This document shows, in pieces, positions 241 to 8,165 of a stretch of 10,462 nt of DNA. How positions within the stretch are numbered: position 1 is the stretch's first letter; the number at the start of each line of letters is the position of its first letter. The stretch is taken from the IMG/VR virus record IMGVR_UViG_2703718824_000015; one strand, 5' to 3'. Source of the stretch: a virus (Duplodnaviria; Heunggongvirae; Uroviricota; Caudoviricetes). The translations under genes were made by a program, and so were the position numbers. Under the pieces are notes generated by a model, which saw nothing but the letters and a program-made list of their open reading frames with translations, searched no databases and was not told the origin of the DNA.

Positions 241-540
241 ATGAAATTTAAATATTCTGGCTTAACTGCCAGTGGCAACACTCACCCTAAATTTACGCGC
301 GGTGATATTTACCGCGACCAGTACGGCGGCACGGTAATGATTAAGGGCGTGGCGGGACGGTGCGTAACTTACCGCCGTGAAGGTTACGAATATGATTGCG
401 TGATGCCTGTTTATCAGTTCCGGCGTGATTTTTCTCTTGTGCAGGCCGTACCGCGTAACGTGCCCACCAGCAGGGAGAAAGCACGCGCCAATATTCAGAA
501 GATGAAAAACATGATTAACGGATTCAGGGGCAAAAAATGA
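241..540 (+). CDS. hypothetical small protein (99 aa), translationally coupled to the downstream primase gene
   Basis: ATG at 241 with GGAG about 10 nt upstream; stop TGA overlaps the ATG of the next gene (ATGA at 537-540); no recognisable motif. Confidence 0.5.
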   Translation: MKFKYSGLTASGNTHPKFTRGDIYRDQYGGTVMIKGVAGRCVTYRREGYEYDCVMPVYQFRRDFSLVQAVPRNVPTSREKARANIQKMKNMINGFRGKK

Positions 541-2291
541 AACTGGCACCGAACGTAAAACAGCAGCCACGCGGCATAAAACACAAAGAAACAGAAGTCA
601 TTATTTTTGCGGGTAGTGATGCCTGGTCACACGCGAAACAATGGCAGGAACATGACGCGCGTATGGCCGGAGATAATGAGCCTCCTGTGTGGCTTGGGGA
701 GCAGCAGTTATCAGAACTGGATAAGCTGCAAATTGTGCCGGAAGGCAGAAAATCCGTGCGCATATTCAGGGCCGGATATCTTGCGCCAGTAATGATAAAG
801 GCGATTGGTCAGAAGCTGGCGGCGGCAGGCGTACAGGATGCAAATTTTTACCCTGATGGTATGCACGGTCAGAAGGTGGAGAACTGGCGCGAATATCTGG
901 CCAGTGAGCGCCAGAATCTTTCTGATGGGCTGGTTATTGAGCTTCCTGTAAAGCAAAAGGCGCAACTTTCGCAGATGGCGGACAGTGAGCGCGCTCAACT
1001 TCTTGCCGGACGATTTGATGGCGTTTGCGTGCATCCTGAAAGTGAAATCGTTCACGTATGGCGCGGCGGGGTATGGTGTCCGGTCAGCACAATGGAACTT
1101 AGCCGCGAAATGGTGGCGATCTATTCAGAGCACAGGGCCACTTTCAGCAAGCGCGTAATCAATAACGCCGTGGAAGCGTTAAAAGTTATTGCCGAACCAA
1201 TGGGCGAGCCGTCCGGCGATTTGCTGCCGTTTGCCAATGGTGCGCTTGACCTGAAAACGGGGGAATTTTCCCCGCACACGCCGGAGAACTGGATCACCAC
1301 GCACAACGGTATTGAGTACACGCCACCAGCACCAGGGGAGAACATCCGCGATAACGCGCCAAACTTTCATAAATGGCTTGAGCACGCAGCCGGAAAAGAC
1401 CCGCGCAAGATGATGCGGATATGTGCCGCGCTGTACATGATTATGGCGAACCGGTACGACTGGCAGATGTTTATTGAGGCCACCGGAGACGGCGGGAGCG
1501 GTAAAAGTACATTCACACACATAGCCAGCCTTCTGGCAGGGAAACAGAACACGGTAAGCGCTGAAATGACATCGCTTGATGATGCTGGTGGACGTGCGCA
1601 GGTTGTCGGGAGTCGCCTTATCGTCCTGGCTGACCAGCCGAAATATACAGGCGAAGGAACGGGCATCAAGAAAATCACGGGCGGTGACCCCGTGGAAATT
1701 AACCCGAAATATGAAAAGCGTTTTACGGCGGTAATCAGGGCGGTGGTGCTGGCGACCAACAACAACCCGATGATATTCACCGAACGGGCCGGAGGTGTGG
1801 CACGTCGTCGCGTGATTTTCCGTTTCGACAATATCGTCAGTGAGGCCGAAAAAGACAGGGAGCTACCGGAAAAGATTGCGGCTGAAATCCCTGTCATTAT
1901 CCGCCGATTGCTGGCGAACTTTACCGACTCTGAGAAAGCACGGGCTTTACTACTGGAACAGCGTGACGGTGATGAAGCTCTGGCAATAAAGCAACAGACG
2001 GATCCGGTTATTGAGTTTTGCCAGTTCCTGAATTTTCTGGAGGAAGCGCGCGGCCTGATGATGGGGGGCGGTGGTGATTCAGTGAAGTACACGACCAGGA
2101 ACAGCCTTTACCGCGTCTATCTGGCGTTTATGGCATACGCAGGCAGGAGCAAACCGCTAAACGTGGCTGAGTTCAGCAAGGCCATGAAGCCAGCGGCGAA
2201 AGTTTACGGGCATGAATATATTACGCGAAAAGTTAAGGGAGTAACGCAGACCAACGCAATTACAACAGACGATTGCGACGCGTTTTTATAA
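537..2291 (+). CDS. P4/PICI-type replication initiator: primase with SF3-helicase-like P-loop NTPase domain
   Basis: 584-aa ORF with Walker A motif GDGGSGKST followed by a hydrophobic stretch ending in D (LIVLAD); overall resemblance to phage/plasmid primase P4-family C-terminal domain proteins; iteron array lies immediately downstream. Confidence 0.85.
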   Translation: MKLAPNVKQQPRGIKHKETEVIIFAGSDAWSHAKQWQEHDARMAGDNEPPVWLGEQQLSELDKLQIVPEGRKSVRIFRAGYLAPVMIKAIGQKLAAAGVQDANFYPDGMHGQKVENWREYLASERQNLSDGLVIELPVKQKAQLSQMADSERAQLLAGRFDGVCVHPESEIVHVWRGGVWCPVSTMELSREMVAIYSEHRATFSKRVINNAVEALKVIAEPMGEPSGDLLPFANGALDLKTGEFSPHTPENWITTHNGIEYTPPAPGENIRDNAPNFHKWLEHAAGKDPRKMMRICAALYMIMANRYDWQMFIEATGDGGSGKSTFTHIASLLAGKQNTVSAEMTSLDDAGGRAQVVGSRLIVLADQPKYTGEGTGIKKITGGDPVEINPKYEKRFTAVIRAVVLATNNNPMIFTERAGGVARRRVIFRFDNIVSEAEKDRELPEKIAAEIPVIIRRLLANFTDSEKARALLLEQRDGDEALAIKQQTDPVIEFCQFLNFLEEARGLMMGGGGDSVKYTTRNSLYRVYLAFMAYAGRSKPLNVAEFSKAMKPAAKVYGHEYITRKVKGVTQTNAITTDDCDAFL

Positions 2292-2304
2292 TTTTTTGTA
2301 AAAG

Positions 2305-2531
2305 CCCTCTACCCCATCTACCTGAATAAAATAAACGCATATTATTCAACATGATAAGTGGGTAGAGGGCCAGGTAGAAGGCTAATAAAAGCTCTCTACC
2401 TCTTCTACCTGATTTTATCAGTTTCAGGTAGCAGGGTAGACGGCAGGTAGAGGAGCCAAAAAAGCTATCTACCCGCTGAAAGCCGCGCCATTACTGACAT
2501 GATGAGCATTCGGGTAGATGGGTAGAGGGGG
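2305..2531. repeat. iteron array / putative replication origin (about 12 copies of a GGTAGA(G)-type heptamer, mostly in tandem pairs, in both orientations)
   Basis: Direct reading: CTCTACC 2307-2313, ATCTACC 2316-2322, GGTAGAG 2361-2367, GGTAGAA 2373-2379, CTCTACC 2394-2400, TTCTACC 2403-2409, GGTAGCA 2427-2433, GGTAGAC 2435-2441, GGTAGAG 2446-2452, ATCTACC 2467-2473, GGTAGAT 2513-2519, GGTAGAG 2521-2527; AT-rich spacers; position directly 3' of the initiator gene. Confidence 0.6.
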
Positions 2532-2576
2532 GGAGGCACAACTCAAAACTTTTTAAACGAGGGGGTAAAAATAAAT

Positions 2577-2855
2577 ATGCACACTTCAGGGAAATTTAAT
2601 AAATCACTCAAAAAACACAGAGACAGAACAGAACCGAAATATCGCGCGTTAGACATGACAGAGCACGCTTTAAAGGTGGCAATTAGAACGATAGACCGCC
2701 ACGCGGGGGAAGGATACGCGAAGGAACATCCCGACCTGATAAGCGCATTCATGACCACAGCAGCGGCAAACTTTGCCACGCTAACAGAACGGGAGATTGC
2801 CGAAGCGGAACAGGTGACAACCATCAACGTTAAAACCGGAGAGGTGGAATTATGA
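2577..2855 (+). CDS. hypothetical protein (92 aa), first gene of a small operon with the SSB-like gene
   Basis: ATG at 2577 with GAGGGGG about 10 nt upstream; stop overlaps the next ATG (ATGA at 2852-2855); no recognisable motif. Confidence 0.5.
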   Translation: MHTSGKFNKSLKKHRDRTEPKYRALDMTEHALKVAIRTIDRHAGEGYAKEHPDLISAFMTTAAANFATLTEREIAEAEQVTTINVKTGEVEL

Positions 2856-3262
2856 CGGCACAGATAGCCGCTTACGGGCGGCTGGTGGACGACCCGCAGG
2901 TAAAACAGACCAGCAAGGGCACACCGATGACGCTGGCGCGTATGGCGGTATCTTTGCCATGCAGCCAGGCACAGGACGGACAGGCGACGTTATGGTTATC
3001 GGTTATCGCATTTGGCAAACAGGCCGATTTCCTGGCTAAACATCAAAAAGGCGATGTTGCCAGCGTATCCGGCACGATGCAGGTAAGCCAGTGGACCGGA
3101 CAGAACGGGGAAACGCGGCGGGGGTATCAGGTTATTGCAGACAGCGTAATCAGTGCCCGCGCGGCACGTCCAGGCGGGAACAGACGCAAAACCACAGGCA
3201 CACAGGGTAATCAGCCACCAGCGGGAGGCGATGACCCTTACGGTGACGGTATTCCGTTCTGA
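2852..3262 (+). CDS. ssb: single-stranded DNA-binding protein-like (OB fold with acidic C-terminal tail)
   Basis: 136 aa; conserved SSB-like core pattern (GRLVDDP...W..V.AFGK.A......KGD...V.G......W....G..R) followed by a Gly/Pro/Gln-rich linker and a C-terminal DDPYGDGIPF tail resembling the canonical SSB DDDIPF tip; GGAGAGG RBS upstream. Confidence 0.65.
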   Translation: MTAQIAAYGRLVDDPQVKQTSKGTPMTLARMAVSLPCSQAQDGQATLWLSVIAFGKQADFLAKHQKGDVASVSGTMQVSQWTGQNGETRRGYQVIADSVISARAARPGGNRRKTTGTQGNQPPAGGDDPYGDGIPF

Positions 3263-3272
3263 GGGGGTGACG

Positions 3273-3521
3273 ATGGTACATGACCGCATAGCGGAGGAAC
3301 TCGAGGCAAAAGGCTTTTACCGGAGGGCGTCGGCGCGATGGGGTGAAGTCATGCAACTGGTGGAGACAGACAAGGAACGGCATCAGGTTACGATGCGACG
3401 GCTGGAATGTTCCAGGAAGGCACAGAGGCCACCGGAGCCGCCAACGGAGAACTACGCAGACCTGAGAAATGCAGTAAATCGCACTTACGCAGACATGGGG
3501 CTGAGCAAATTAGCAGAGTAG
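3273..3521 (+). CDS. PerC-family transcriptional activator homologue
   Basis: 82-aa product MVHDRIAEELEAKGFYRRASARWGEVMQLVETDKERH... matches the PerC/Pch signature (E.LE.KG.[WY]RRAA.RW..V.....E.ER); start chosen at ATG 3273 (GAGGGGG 6 nt upstream) rather than the ORF-track start 3153, which would overlap the SSB gene. Confidence 0.65.
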   Translation: MVHDRIAEELEAKGFYRRASARWGEVMQLVETDKERHQVTMRRLECSRKAQRPPEPPTENYADLRNAVNRTYADMGLSKLAE

Positions 3522-3543
3522 GAATATCAGAACCACACCATAC

Positions 3544-3566
3544 AGCCGGAGCAATCCGGCTTTTTG
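3544..3566 (+). terminator. rho-independent terminator after the PerC-like gene
   Basis: Stem AGCCGGA / TCCGGCT with GCAA loop, followed by a TTTTT run extended by further T-tracts. Confidence 0.5.
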
Positions 3567-3825
3567 TTATTTTTTGTAAATTATTTGTTCGTGGTTGTTC
3601 CACGTTGTTCACTGAGCGGATCGGCATATTTTACCCGAACTGAATCATGATTATTCTCGCCCGTGGTGCCAGGACGCTGGGGCCACTTTCCCGCCTGTTA
3701 ATGTGCTCGCCAATATTCATTACCAGGCGGGAAAACGATCGGTGCGATTGCTGATTTCCTTATGAAAAACGGTTGAGTGTTTGCCGCGTCCTGGAGTTCC
3801 TTACTTAACCCCAGGACTTTTTTTT
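3567..3825 (+). promoter_or_regulatory. structured intergenic region upstream of the head operon (phased T-tract/TTGTTC repeats, 11-bp inverted repeat, hairpin plus T8); probable late promoter/control region
   Basis: TTGTTA 3564, TTGTAA 3575, TTGTTC 3585, 3595, 3605 at about 10-bp phasing; perfect inverted repeat TTTCCCGCCTG 3687-3697 / CAGGCGGGAAA 3724-3734; GTCCTGG 3788-3794 / CCAGGAC 3811-3817 followed by T8 abutting the capsid ATG. Confidence 0.3.
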
Positions 3826-4983
3826 ATGCCGAGAATAATCGAATTACGCCAGCAGAAAACCGCCATTAAAAATCAGATGCGCGACATGCTGGAGAACGCT
3901 GAAAAAGAAAACCGCAGTCTTAACGATGCTGAGGGCGCAAAATTTGACGAATTACGCGCTAAAGCTGAATCCCTCGATAAAGACATTTCCCGCCTTGAAG
4001 CCATTGCAGACGAAGAGCGCAGCAAGCCAGGTAAAAGCAGTCAGACCACTGACCCCGCAGAACTACGAAACTACATTCTGACGGGTGAAACCCGCGCATT
4101 AAGTACAGGCGTTCCCGCTGATGGTGGTTATACCGTTATCCCCGAACTGAACACCGAAATCATGCGAATGCTGACGGATGAATCCACCATGCGCCGCATC
4201 TGTACCGTGAAGAAAATCAGCAGCAACGAGTTTAAGCAGCTTGTTTCCGCTGGCGGTGCGACCGTTAACCACGGTGAAGAGGGTAAGGCACGCGAACAGA
4301 CCAGCACCCCGCAGATTAACGAGGTGAGCATTAAGCTGTATCCGGTCTATGCGTACCCGCGCACCACACAGGAAATCGTGGATTTTTCCGATGTGGACAT
4401 CCTTTCATGGCTGACGGGTGAGATTGGCGACACCTTCACGGAAACCGAAGAAAGCGATCTGGTTGTGGGCGACGGTGACAAAAAAGCAAAAGGTTTTTTA
4501 TCCGTACCCCGTGCAGAGAAGAACGACAAAGAGCGTGATTTTGGTACGTTGCAGGTAATTAAACCTTCCGAATCTCTGGCGTGGACATCTGCGGACCCGT
4601 TGATCGACCTGAAATTTGCATTACGTAAAAAATACCGCAAAAACGCGGTCTGGGTGGTTAACTCCACGACGGCGGCAAAACTTCAGAAGGTGAAGAACGC
4701 GAACGGTGATTACATCTGGCGCGACCGTTTACAGGCGGGTGATCCTGATACGTTGCTGGGCCTTCCGGTCGAATATCTGGAGTTTATGCCTGATAACGTT
4801 ATTGCCCTGGGTGACTTCAAACGCGGTTACTACATTGTTGATCACGAAACAGGTGTTCGCACCAGACCGGACAACCTCACAGAGCCGGGCTTCATCAAAA
4901 TTTTCACGCAGAAATATTTAGGCGGTGGCGTGGTGGATTCGAACGCGATCAAGATTCTGGAACTGCCACAGGACGACGATTAA
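3826..4983 (+). CDS. major capsid protein, HK97 family, with N-terminal coiled-coil (delta/scaffold-like) domain
   Basis: 385-aa product; charged N-terminal region predicted coiled-coil (ELRQQKTAIKNQMRDMLENAEKENRSL...), then HK97-type capsid body with C-terminal GDPDTLLGLPV and GDFKRGYYIVD motifs; start set at first ATG (3826), the ORF track extends to TTG 3781; no obvious SD. Confidence 0.85.
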   Translation: MPRIIELRQQKTAIKNQMRDMLENAEKENRSLNDAEGAKFDELRAKAESLDKDISRLEAIADEERSKPGKSSQTTDPAELRNYILTGETRALSTGVPADGGYTVIPELNTEIMRMLTDESTMRRICTVKKISSNEFKQLVSAGGATVNHGEEGKAREQTSTPQINEVSIKLYPVYAYPRTTQEIVDFSDVDILSWLTGEIGDTFTETEESDLVVGDGDKKAKGFLSVPRAEKNDKERDFGTLQVIKPSESLAWTSADPLIDLKFALRKKYRKNAVWVVNSTTAAKLQKVKNANGDYIWRDRLQAGDPDTLLGLPVEYLEFMPDNVIALGDFKRGYYIVDHETGVRTRPDNLTEPGFIKIFTQKYLGGGVVDSNAIKILELPQDDD

Positions 4984-7876: not shown

Positions 7877-8045
7877 GCGGGAACAAAACCGCCTTATCCG
7901 TGGACTTATAAGGCAGCGTGACGCATGGAAGACACAGGAAACAGGGCATAAAGATAAAGCGTCAGGACGTGCAGAACGCATCACAGCGAAGCGATTAACC
8001 GACCGTGACCGCGAGGTTATGGAATGTTTCCGCAATCGCTGGTGA
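7860..8045 (+). CDS. hypothetical small basic protein (about 61 aa), overlapping the 3' end of the HNH gene
   Basis: ORF in a different frame from HNH (ATG at 7860 or 7869); Arg/Lys-rich product (...NEREQNRLIRGLIRQRDAWKTQETGHKDKASGRAERITAKRLTDRDREVMECFRNRW); no motif recognised, may be spurious. Confidence 0.3.
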   Translation: MTLMNEREQNRLIRGLIRQRDAWKTQETGHKDKASGRAERITAKRLTDRDREVMECFRNRW

Positions 8046-8165
8046 TGCTGTATGACGGGGTGGGGGGCGTTTTCAGGACAAACCCGACCCCGCCGGGCAC
8101 CGAACGCCTCCTCAAATTTTTATGCACGGGAATTTTTTGAAAAATAATCTGGCGAAAAAATAAGC
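8046..8165. other. candidate cos / packaging-initiation region between the HNH and terS genes
   Basis: Noncoding 120 bp with G-run GACGGGGTGGGGGGCG (8054-8069) and imperfect partner CCCGACCCCGCCGGG (8083-8097), flanked by AT-rich tracts; position matches cos in HK97-like phages; purely positional and compositional. Confidence 0.25.

What the first reader, a model, noticed from the sequence alone, without database searches (positions are those of the whole stretch)
3273..3521. PerC-family activator homologue between the replication and capsid modules
PerC/Pch-family proteins are known as activators of ler and the LEE virulence island in EPEC/EHEC, and are often prophage-borne. Here a PerC-like gene is the last gene before the head operon of a satellite-like element. 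It could be the element's own activator of the downstream late (capsid) promoter, could cross-talk with host virulence regulation, or both.
Basis: partly seen in the sequence, partly recalled or inferred. Interest (0 to 1): 0.6.

Follow-up and report, generated by a model that had tools for sequence, protein, structure and literature searches.

The report
PchE-type PerC gene in a capsid-forming satellite
The gene is a real PerC-family regulator, the counterpart of the already studied PchE of E. coli O157, carried as optional cargo in a known kind of phage satellite, and comparison with related satellites argues against it being the switch for the neighbouring capsid genes.

Summary
Window 3273-3521 (+) encodes an 82-aa PerC-family protein (Pfam PF06069, E=1e-35). 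The window is the interior of a capsid-forming phage-inducible chromosomal island (cf-PICI) with the architecture of E. coli O157 OI-51/Sp7 (EcCIEDL933). There the gene at the same position is pchE; the two proteins are 80% identical. RefSeq already holds this exact allele as a "PerC family transcriptional regulator", and PerC genes in PICIs are described in the literature.

- Published work reports that PchE-type proteins do not activate LEE1. PchE represses curli and adhesion and raises flagellar expression.
- The "own late activator" idea is not supported. 26 of 74 related cf-PICI loci have no PerC gene, yet their capsid control regions are 91-100% identical to those of PerC-carrying elements.
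- In other satellites PerC follows SSB with no capsid module downstream.
- A terminator and a variable gene slot separate perC from the capsid operon.
- The predicted fold is a small TPR-like helical bundle with no helix-turn-helix.

The capsid operon has its own conserved control region: phased TTGTT repeats, a weak sigma-70-like promoter and a covarying 5' hairpin. This is an ordinary, known feature, of low interest.

The parts
3273..3521 (+). PerC-family gene, PchE type, 82 aa. It lacks the C-terminal (I/V)(F/W)R(N/R)Y motif of the family.
   Evidence: Pfam PF06069 E=1e-35. 80% identical to Sakai PchE, 44% to a PchABC-type protein, 41% to EPEC PerC. Alignment A4.
3261..3267 (+). Shine-Dalgarno GAGGGGG of the PerC-like gene, overlapping the SSB stop codon
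   Evidence: Read from the sequence.
2577..2855 (+). orf92 (phrog_1231, unknown function), first cistron of the orf92-ssb-perC unit
   Evidence: Homologue of Sakai ECs1586, which in strain PA20 starts the polycistronic pchE transcript (PMC7369912). The promoter region itself is not homologous to Sakai.
2852..3262 (+). Single-strand DNA-binding protein gene. Its start overlaps the orf92 stop (ATGA).
   Evidence: Pfam SSB E=5.8e-17. It lies directly or closely upstream of PerC in 10 other Enterobacterales loci.
3544..3571 (+). Intrinsic terminator ending the orf92-ssb-perC unit
   Evidence: Terminator scan. Hairpin of -12.6 kcal/mol, z=-4.1, followed by a T-run. Duplicated around the inserted gene ECs1589 in Sakai.
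3564..3614 (+). Five phased (10-11 bp) TTGT(T) repeats, including the block TTTGTAAAT (3573-3581) that is invariant in the five-lineage alignment A8. Candidate binding array at about -50 to -100 of the predicted capsid promoter.
   Evidence: Arrays of four or more phased copies occur elsewhere only just upstream of int (attL side) and between int and alpA in related elements, and 3-copy arrays lie near attR. None were found in 200 shuffles.
3630..3657 (+). Predicted weak sigma-70-type promoter of the capsid operon: -35 TTTACC, 16-bp spacer, -10 TATTCT
   Evidence: The hexamers and the spacing are kept in all 30 distinct anchored upstream sequences, while the spacer and discriminator vary freely. 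It scores 8/12 to consensus, so the default scan misses it. The start site was not mapped.
3663..3686 (+). Hairpin at the predicted 5' end of the capsid-operon leader, with a GACG loop
   Evidence: -15.6 kcal/mol. 97.8% of cells paired, 6 of 9 pairs with compensatory changes, slid controls 30-58%.
3687..3734 (+). 17-bp inverted repeat or long leader hairpin
   Evidence: -23.5 kcal/mol, z=-6.3. The stem is kept and the loop replaced in L024.
3788..3825 (+). Terminator-like hairpin plus a T8 run that ends at the capsid ATG. The AGGA ribosome-binding site lies in its 3' arm.
   Evidence: Stem and T-run are kept in L024 with a different loop. Absent from the second leader type.
3826..4983 (+). HK97-type major capsid gene, first gene of the head and packaging operon
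   Evidence: Pfam Phage_capsid E=1.8e-61 and TIGR01554 E=4e-88.
241..540 (+). RgdR-like DUF4222 protein with the RGD motif at residues 20-22
   Evidence: Pfam DUF4222. 81% identical to Sakai ECs1581/RgdR, the published LEE1 activator of OI-51 (PMC3378721).
2299..2530 (.). Iteron-rich region (GGTAGAGGG / CCTCTACC repeats), probably the replication origin
   Evidence: Repeat families D1-D3, D9 and I1-I24. The position after the primase gene agrees with published PICI ori locations (PMC6092414, PMC10111431).

Best explanation
The ORF encodes a group-3 (PchE-type) PerC-family protein. It is carried as optional cargo at the boundary between the replication zone and the late zone of a capsid-forming PICI of the EcCIEDL933/OI-51 type.

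Shown here:
- Family membership and orthology to PchE.
- It is the last cistron of a tightly packed orf92-ssb-perC unit that ends at an intrinsic terminator.
- The predicted fold is a small TPR-like helical bundle with no helix-turn-helix.
- The gene is absent from about a third of related cf-PICIs whose capsid control regions are otherwise the same.

Inferred:
- It works through protein-protein contacts on nucleoid-protein or regulator complexes. This is shown for PchA, which relieves H-NS silencing, and suggested by the weak ANR resemblance.
- By orthology with PchE it tunes host regulons from the integrated element: curli and adhesins down, flagella up, no LEE1 activation.
- It is not the switch for the capsid operon. 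That operon has its own control region: a phased TTGTT array that also occurs upstream of int, near attR and in the int-alpA region of related elements, a weak conserved promoter, and a structured leader.
- The most likely driver of that region is the satellite's AlpA-type regulator, perhaps with a helper-phage signal.
For: - Family and orthology. The same gene order occurs in Sakai Sp7/OI-51 and in two tqsA-integrated elements. RefSeq annotates the identical 82-aa protein.
- Transcription unit: overlapping or adjacent cistrons and a terminator.
- Variable slot after perC: the gene ECs1589 is inserted between duplicated terminators in Sakai, and a homologous small gene sits there in L024.
- Dispensability: of 74 cf-PICI loci with enough upstream sequence, 48 have PerC and 26 lack it. 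A six-frame whole-locus search confirmed the absences. L025 and L026 carry ProQ/FinO plus a small gene in that position instead.
- PerC-carrying and PerC-less elements share 91-100% identical 265-bp capsid control regions.
- In 10 diverse Enterobacterales loci PerC follows SSB with no capsid module downstream.
- Literature: PchE does not activate ler/LEE1, represses csgD and curli, raises flagella, has basal expression and drops 3-7 fold on SOS induction (PMC6265319, PMC7369912, PMC11773190). Pch acts by relieving H-NS silencing and has no known DNA-binding homology (PMC4764244). AlpA is the PICI activator (PMC6092414).
- Capsid control region.
Against: - Nothing was tested on this 82-aa allele. 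It lacks the C-terminal (I/V)(F/W)R(N/R)Y motif present in PerC, PchABC and PchE, so its activity may differ from that of PchE.
- The PchE phenotypes come largely from plasmid over-expression.
- Every element with the window's own leader type carries PerC: 37 of 37 in the >=98% capsid class, plus L024 and L089. A lineage-specific link to the capsid promoter therefore cannot be excluded.
- The region upstream of the promoter is AT-rich, 39% GC against 55-60% in the flanking genes. That is the kind of DNA H-NS silences and Pch relieves.
- PerC-less elements might receive a PerC homologue in trans from another element in the same genome.
- The loci surveyed are not phylogenetically independent.
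- That AlpA binds the TTGTT array is an inference only. L024 and L026 keep the array at the capsid operon but not at their att or int regions.
Confidence: 0.6

Rival explanations
1. The PerC-like protein is the satellite's own activator or counter-silencer of the capsid-operon promoter. It would relieve H-NS-type silencing of the AT-rich TTGTT/TTTGTAAAT region so that the weak promoter at 3630-3657 can fire.
For: - It lies immediately upstream of the capsid control region.
- The promoter is weak and non-consensus.
- The upstream region is AT-rich.
- Pch proteins are anti-silencers (PMC4764244).
- All elements with the window's leader type carry PerC.
Against: - 26 of 74 cf-PICI loci lack PerC.
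- Control regions are up to 100% identical between PerC-carrying and PerC-less elements.
- A terminator and inserted genes separate perC from the promoter.
- PerC occurs after SSB in satellites without capsid genes.
- pchE is expressed in uninduced cells and falls on SOS or prophage induction (PMC6265319, PMC7369912), the opposite of a late activator.
- No DNA-binding fold is predicted.
Confidence: 0.12
2. It is an establishment or maintenance factor of the mobile element, linked to the SSB and replication module. It would counter host xenogeneic silencing or modulate regulators when the satellite enters a new cell, as plasmid leading-region genes do, rather than serve as a host-virulence regulator.
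For: - SSB-PerC linkage is conserved across Escherichia, Enterobacter, Kluyvera, Shimwellia, Atlantibacter and Buttiauxella satellites.
- 217 plasmids carry PerC-family genes.
- In the four plasmid contexts inspected, two have a ProQ/FinO gene within a few kb and one has FinO and Hha nearby.
- The slot is filled by ProQ/FinO in PerC-less cf-PICIs.
Against: - There is no direct evidence.
- The linkage may only reflect inheritance of a module.
- In the four plasmid contexts inspected PerC is not next to ssb.
- The published PchE phenotypes concern chromosomal host regulons.
Confidence: 0.13
3. It is an ANR-like anti-activator that represses AraC-family-dependent or LEE virulence genes, as reported for EcCIMP1_025.
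For: - Weak match to the ANR family NF033650: E=0.0024 over residues 7-52.
- EcCIMP1_025, about 40% identical to the PICI PerC-like proteins, silences LEE1-lux in Citrobacter rodentium (PMC11773190).
- Plasmid PerC genes are often paired with a divergent 244-aa helix-turn-helix protein gene.
Against: - The ANR score of 17.7 bits is below the curated cut-off of 32.
- No AraC-family gene lies in the window.
- PchE was reported to have little effect on LEE1 fusions (PMC11773190, PMC6265319).
Confidence: 0.1
4. The 82-aa allele is a decaying, functionless remnant.
For: It lacks the last ~8-13 residues of the family, including the conserved FRNY-like motif. The 3' end of the gene is a divergent mosaic segment.
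Against: - The intact reading frame has a good ribosome-binding site.
- dN/dS is below 1 in the N-terminal domain.
- The identical allele is present on 1000 or more contigs.
- L024 carries another short allele.
Confidence: 0.05

Closest known systems
PchE (ECs1588) of E. coli O157:H7 Sakai Sp7 / OI-51 / CP-933C = cf-PICI EcCIEDL933
   Same: 80% amino-acid identity, with the first 57 residues nearly identical. Same position after orf-SSB and before the capsid operon, and the same flanking control region at 98% nucleotide identity.
   Different: The window allele is 82 aa rather than 90 aa, with a different C-terminal tail lacking EIWRNY. Sakai has an extra small gene (ECs1589) between pchE and the capsid control region. 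The primase and ori upstream are of a different type.
EPEC PerC (pMAR2) and EHEC PchA/B/C (group 1)
   Same: Same Pfam family, with the shared N-terminal LE-KG(L/F)YRRA--RW motif and Cys46.
   Different: Only 41-44% identity. Those genes sit on a virulence plasmid next to perA/perB or late in lambdoid prophages. They activate LEE1, which group 3 reportedly does not (PMC6265319).
EcCIMP1_025, the PerC-like protein of the classical PICI EcCIMP1
   Same: A PerC-family gene carried by a Gram-negative PICI (PMC11773190).
   Different: About 40% identity to the EcCIEDL933 protein according to that paper. It represses LEE1 in C. rodentium, and its element has no capsid module.
ANR (AraC negative regulator) family, e.g. 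Aar
   Same: Small helical proteins that act by protein-protein contact. A weak profile match covers residues 7-52.
   Different: The score is below the family cut-off, and there is no AraC-family partner gene in the element.
Satellite or phage late activators (P2 Ogr / P4 Delta; SaPI use of helper LtrC/RinA)
   Same: This resemblance is from my own knowledge of those systems.
   Different: There is no sequence or fold resemblance. Only PerC was found in Pfam, and the fold is TPR-like. Comparative data argue against this role.

Membership tests
PerC family (Pfam PF06069) | Profile match above the curated gathering score | tested here: met
   122.3 bits against a cut-off of 22.6, E=1e-35.
PerC family (Pfam PF06069) | Conserved N-terminal motif D--AE-LE--G(L/F)YRRA--RW and the conserved Cys near residue 46 | tested here: met
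   L10, E11, R17, A19 and W23 are invariant and C46 nearly invariant in 44 family members, and all are present in the window protein.
PerC family (Pfam PF06069) | C-terminal MG(I/L)...(I/V)(F/W)R(N/R)Y segment (profile positions 78-90) | tested here: not met
   The window protein ends at MGLSKLAE, and only profile positions 1-77 of 90 are matched. The MG(I/L) part is present; the FRNY-like part is absent.
PerC family (Pfam PF06069) | Activation of the LEE1/ler promoter, the activity that named the family | not testable with these tools
   The literature reports none for the orthologue PchE (PMC6265319, PMC11773190). This allele has not been tested.
Group 3 Pch (PchE type) | High identity to ECs1588 and the same genomic position in an OI-51-type element | tested here: met
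   80% identity. Identical gene order orf-SSB-PerC-capsid.
Group 3 Pch (PchE type) | Represses csgD/curli and adhesion, and stimulates flagella | not testable with these tools
   Known for PchE in strain PA20 (PMC6265319, PMC7369912).
ANR (AraC negative regulators, NF033650) | Profile score above the curated cut-off | tested here: not met
   17.7 bits against a cut-off of 32, E=0.0024.
Capsid-forming PICI (cf-PICI), the host element | Primase/replication module plus capsid, protease, portal, connectors, HNH, TerS and TerL, with no tail or lysis genes | tested here: met
   The window covers only the interior of the element.
Capsid-forming PICI (cf-PICI), the host element | int and alpA at the left end, with a dedicated att site | tested here: inconclusive
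   These lie outside the window. They are present in the nearest complete relatives: L001 and L027 in tqsA, and Sakai Sp7 next to phoQ.
Dedicated late-operon activator of the satellite | Co-inheritance with the operon it controls and with that operon's control region | tested here: not met
   26 of 74 loci lack PerC, and control regions are 91-100% identical with and without it.
Dedicated late-operon activator of the satellite | A recognisable DNA-binding domain | tested here: not met
   TPR-like helical model with no helix-turn-helix or zinc finger. No related solved structure by sequence.

The most novel reading that the evidence does not exclude
In the window's own lineage, the PerC-like protein acts as a counter-silencer. 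It would open the AT-rich TTGTT/TTTGTAAAT region upstream of the weak capsid promoter, or more generally license satellite genes in a new host. PerC-family cargo on satellites and plasmids would then be anti-H-NS establishment factors rather than virulence regulators.
Probability: 0.1. Interest if true: 0.55.

Novelty: already known. Interest (0 to 1): 0.22.

Why it matters
The finding itself changes little. PerC-family genes in Gram-negative PICIs are published, the orthologue PchE has been characterised, and this allele is already annotated in RefSeq.

The useful outcome is negative. The tempting idea that PerC switches on the satellite's capsid genes is unlikely. The capsid operon instead has its own conserved control region, for which no description turned up in the cf-PICI papers read here. 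That region gives a concrete target for working out how cf-PICIs time capsid production. The window also encodes an RgdR homologue. One satellite therefore carries two host-directed regulators whose published effects on motility and Congo-red binding are opposite.

Tried and rejected
- Rfam scan of the whole window at E<=1: only a chance snoRNA hit.
- Sequence search of solved structures: nothing significant.
- Default sigma-70 scan of 2200-3900: no promoter. The conserved promoter emerged only from comparing lineages.
- Transferring the mapped pchE start site from Sakai/PA20: rejected. The region upstream of orf92 is not homologous, because the primase and ori are of a different type.
- Pseudomonas AlpA antiterminator as a model for the leader with a terminator-like hairpin: rejected as a membership argument. 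In the structure paper functional residues of that protein reach position 142 (PMC9371919), whereas the PICI AlpA is 62 aa, so it does not look like the same protein.
- Shared k-mers between the int/att regions and the capsid upstream region in L024 and L026: nothing convincing. The link between AlpA and the TTGTT array therefore stays an inference.
- Phage genomes: only 5 of 50,697 records hold a PerC relative, so PerC does not look like a usual part of phage head modules.
- Locus search with the 44-sequence alignment failed for lack of a conserved stretch and was repeated with 10 closer sequences.
- Compensatory changes in the terminator-like hairpin before the capsid ATG: only wobble or single-sided changes were seen.

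Full report
**1. Observation.**
The + strand ORF from ATG 3273 to TAG 3521 encodes 82 aa. A GAGGGGG ribosome-binding site precedes it, and it starts 10 nt after the stop of the preceding SSB gene. It matches Pfam PerC (PF06069) at E=1e-35, 122 bits against a cut-off of 22.6, and phrog_994 at E=1.6e-38. A weak sub-threshold match to the ANR family covers residues 7-52.

- Upstream: a DUF4222 protein (241-540), a P4-type primase (537-2291), an iteron-rich region (2299-2530), orf92 (2577-2855) and SSB (2852-3262).
- Downstream: an HK97-type capsid gene (3826-4983), prohead protease, portal, head closure and adaptor proteins, HNH, P27-type TerS and TerL.

**2. What the element is.**
The window matches E. 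coli chromosomes at up to 96.9% identity over its whole length. In strains PCN033 and 2015C-3121 the element lies within the tqsA gene and starts with a tyrosine integrase and a 62-aa AlpA-family regulator.

The same architecture is found in prophage-like element Sp7 of O157:H7 Sakai. This is O-island 51 / CP-933C (PMC3378721) and, as far as the papers allow me to tell, the prototype capsid-forming PICI EcCIEDL933 (bioRxiv 10.1101/2022.09.08.507074). In Sakai the gene at the same position is annotated pchE (ECs1588). The window protein is 80% identical to it, with almost no change in the first 57 residues and a different, shorter tail.

The identical 82-aa protein is annotated in RefSeq as a PerC family regulator and was seen on at least 1000 contigs. 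Identity to a PchABC-type protein is 44% and to EPEC PerC 41%. The gene therefore belongs to the PchE-type group 3.

**3. What is already published.**
- PICIs of Gram-negative bacteria are reported to carry PerC alleles (PMC6092414, PMC11773190, PMC13612085).
- Groups 2 and 3 (PchD, PchE) are reported not to be needed for ler expression and not to activate LEE1 fusions (PMC6265319 and PMC11773190, citing Iyoda 2004 and Porter 2005; I could not read either primary paper).
- PchE represses csgD and curli, biofilm and HEp-2 adhesion, and raises flagellar genes and motility (PMC6265319, PMC7369912).
- pchE is transcribed with the two upstream genes, is expressed at a low steady level, and falls 3-7 fold when prophages are induced with SMX-TM (PMC6265319, PMC7369912).
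- The PerC-like protein of PICI EcCIMP1 represses LEE1 (PMC11773190).
- PchA acts by relieving H-NS/StpA/Hha silencing and has no homology to known DNA-binding proteins (PMC4764244).
- The regulator of OI-51 that does activate LEE1 is RgdR, ECs1581 (PMC3378721). Window 241-540 encodes a protein 81% identical to it, with the RGD motif at residues 20-22.

**4. Test of the "own late activator" idea.**
I collected 80 loci from IMG/VR that encode relatives of the capsid protein.
- Of the 74 loci with at least 900 bp upstream, 48 have a PerC gene within 2.5 kb and 26 do not.
- All 37 in the nearly identical capsid class have PerC. It is missing in 11 of 15 loci of the 74-75% class and in 15 of 22 of the 63-69% class.
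- A six-frame profile search over the whole loci confirmed the absences.
- Two complete-genome examples, L025 and L026, have SSB, a ProQ/FinO protein and a small unknown protein in front of the capsid operon, and no PerC.
- For each of the nine PerC-carrying elements of the second leader type, the closest PerC-less element has a 265-bp capsid upstream region that is 91-100% identical.
- In 10 loci from Escherichia albertii, E. ruysiae, Enterobacter, Kluyvera, Shimwellia, Atlantibacter and Buttiauxella, a PerC homologue follows SSB (with primase or DUF4222 further upstream in some) and no capsid module lies within 7 kb downstream.
- Only 5 of 50,697 phage records hold a PerC relative.
- Between perC and the capsid control region there is an intrinsic terminator. 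In Sakai and L024 there is also an inserted small gene, flanked in Sakai by a duplicated terminator.

Together with the published fall of pchE expression on induction, this argues that PerC is optional cargo and not the switch of the capsid operon. Three caveats apply. The loci are not independent. Every element with the window's own leader type does carry PerC. A PerC homologue could also act in trans from elsewhere in the genome.

**5. The protein.**

The family conserves L10, E11, R17, A19 and W23 strictly, and D4, A7, G14, R18, R22, C46 and G76 nearly so. The window allele lacks the terminal (I/V)(F/W)R(N/R)Y motif seen in PerC, PchABC and PchE. dN/dS of the N-terminal domain is 0.09-0.57, from small counts. 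I infer a protein-protein adaptor acting on nucleoid-protein or regulator complexes. This was not tested.

**6. What controls the capsid operon instead.**
Comparison of 60 distinct upstream sequences shows a common layout in 59 of them. In window coordinates it is:
- the terminator, 3544-3571;
- the block TTTGTAAAT at 3573-3581, invariant in the five-lineage alignment A8, inside five phased TTGT(T) repeats at 3564-3614;
- a weak promoter, -35 TTTACC (3630-3635), a 16-bp spacer and -10 TATTCT (3652-3657), whose hexamers and spacing are kept while the spacer and discriminator vary freely;
- a hairpin at 3663-3686.

The hairpin has 97.8% of cells paired and compensatory changes in 6 of 9 pairs, against 30-58% paired in the slid controls.

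The window-type leader continues with a 17-bp inverted repeat (3687-3734). It ends in a hairpin plus T8 run directly before the capsid ATG, and that hairpin contains the ribosome-binding site.

Arrays of four or more phased TTGT copies occur in the related complete elements only just upstream of int (attL side), inverted between int and alpA, and upstream of the capsid gene. A 3-copy array lies near attR. None were found in 200 shuffles. Excisionase-like proteins of the AlpA/Vis/TorI kind bind phased direct repeats (my own knowledge), and AlpA is the experimentally shown PICI activator (PMC6092414). I therefore think AlpA, or the integrase arm-binding domain, is the likeliest binder. This is inference. 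L024 and L026, which carry other AlpA and integrase alleles, keep the array at the capsid operon but not at their att sites.

**7. Verdict.**
The family and the context are right. LEE activation and control of the late promoter are not supported.
- The feature is already known and annotated, and interest is low.
- The most novel reading not excluded is that PerC-type cargo acts as a counter-silencer for satellite genes. I give it about 10%.

Noticed in passing
window 241-540 (+): A DUF4222 protein 81% identical to RgdR (ECs1581), with the RGD motif at residues 20-22. RgdR is the published LEE1/T3S activator and motility repressor of OI-51, with effects on motility and Congo-red binding opposite to those reported for PchE. 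The element thus carries two host-directed regulators with opposing published phenotypes.
   Followed up: partly
window 3564-3614; L001 4030-4069, 5392-5441 (inverted), 11576-11626, 19100-19129; L002 2803-2842, 4189-4213: Phased (10-11 bp) TTGT(T) repeat arrays occur only upstream of the capsid operon, just upstream of int, between int and alpA, and near attR. None appeared in 200 shuffles. This suggests one DNA-binding protein (AlpA/excisionase-like, or the integrase arm domain) acts at the att sites, the alpA region and the capsid operon.
   Followed up: partly
window 3630-3686: A conserved weak promoter (-35 TTTACC, 16-bp spacer, -10 TATTCT) is followed at the predicted start site by a hairpin with clear covariation across about four lineages. 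The cf-PICI papers I read do not discuss promoters or transcription of the capsid operon.
   Followed up: yes
window 3649-3659 with 3830-3840; 3788-3825: An 11-nt perfect long-range complement pairs the -10 region with the first codons of the capsid gene. It would exist only in read-through transcripts from upstream. Separately, a terminator-like hairpin plus T8 holds the ribosome-binding site right before the ATG. Both look like locks on capsid expression.
   Followed up: partly
L002 10046-10400 (Sakai ECs1589); L024 11712-11972; L025 8730-8978: A variable slot sits between SSB/PerC and the capsid control region. A small conserved gene of unknown function (74-86 aa, no Pfam match) is present in some elements. 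In Sakai it is flanked by a duplicated terminator hairpin. ProQ/FinO genes fill the slot in PerC-less elements.
   Followed up: partly
window 2299-2530: A dense set of direct and inverted GGTAGAGGG / CCTCTACC iterons lies between the primase gene and orf92, probably the satellite origin. It is only 73% identical to PCN033 and has no match in Sakai, which has a different primase.
   Followed up: partly
L026 (NZ_AP042630.1 1389584-1407634): A PerC-less cf-PICI sits inside a prophage large-terminase gene, whose fragments flank it on both sides. It is probably a helper-embedded PICI of the kind described in PMC10111431.
   Followed up: no
L006, L016, L017, L019, L022 (about 7350-11800 in each): In several non-Escherichia satellites PerC is followed by a lipoprotein-like gene, a conserved 106-108-aa gene and a gene of about 860-1140 aa, not by capsid genes. 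The content of this late zone was not identified.
   Followed up: no
L028, L111, L113, L112 (plasmids): On plasmids, PerC-family genes are often paired with a divergent 244-aa helix-turn-helix protein gene. In one Salmonella plasmid the PerC gene lies near finO and hha.
   Followed up: no
window 7877-8165: A 290-bp non-coding gap between HNH and TerS. By analogy with HK97-like phages (my own knowledge) this is where the cos site would be expected. Not examined.
   Followed up: no
protein clusters: The 90%-identity clusters holding the window protein and PchE also contain 136-aa SSB proteins. This looks like a clustering artefact from adjacent or extended gene calls.
   Followed up: no
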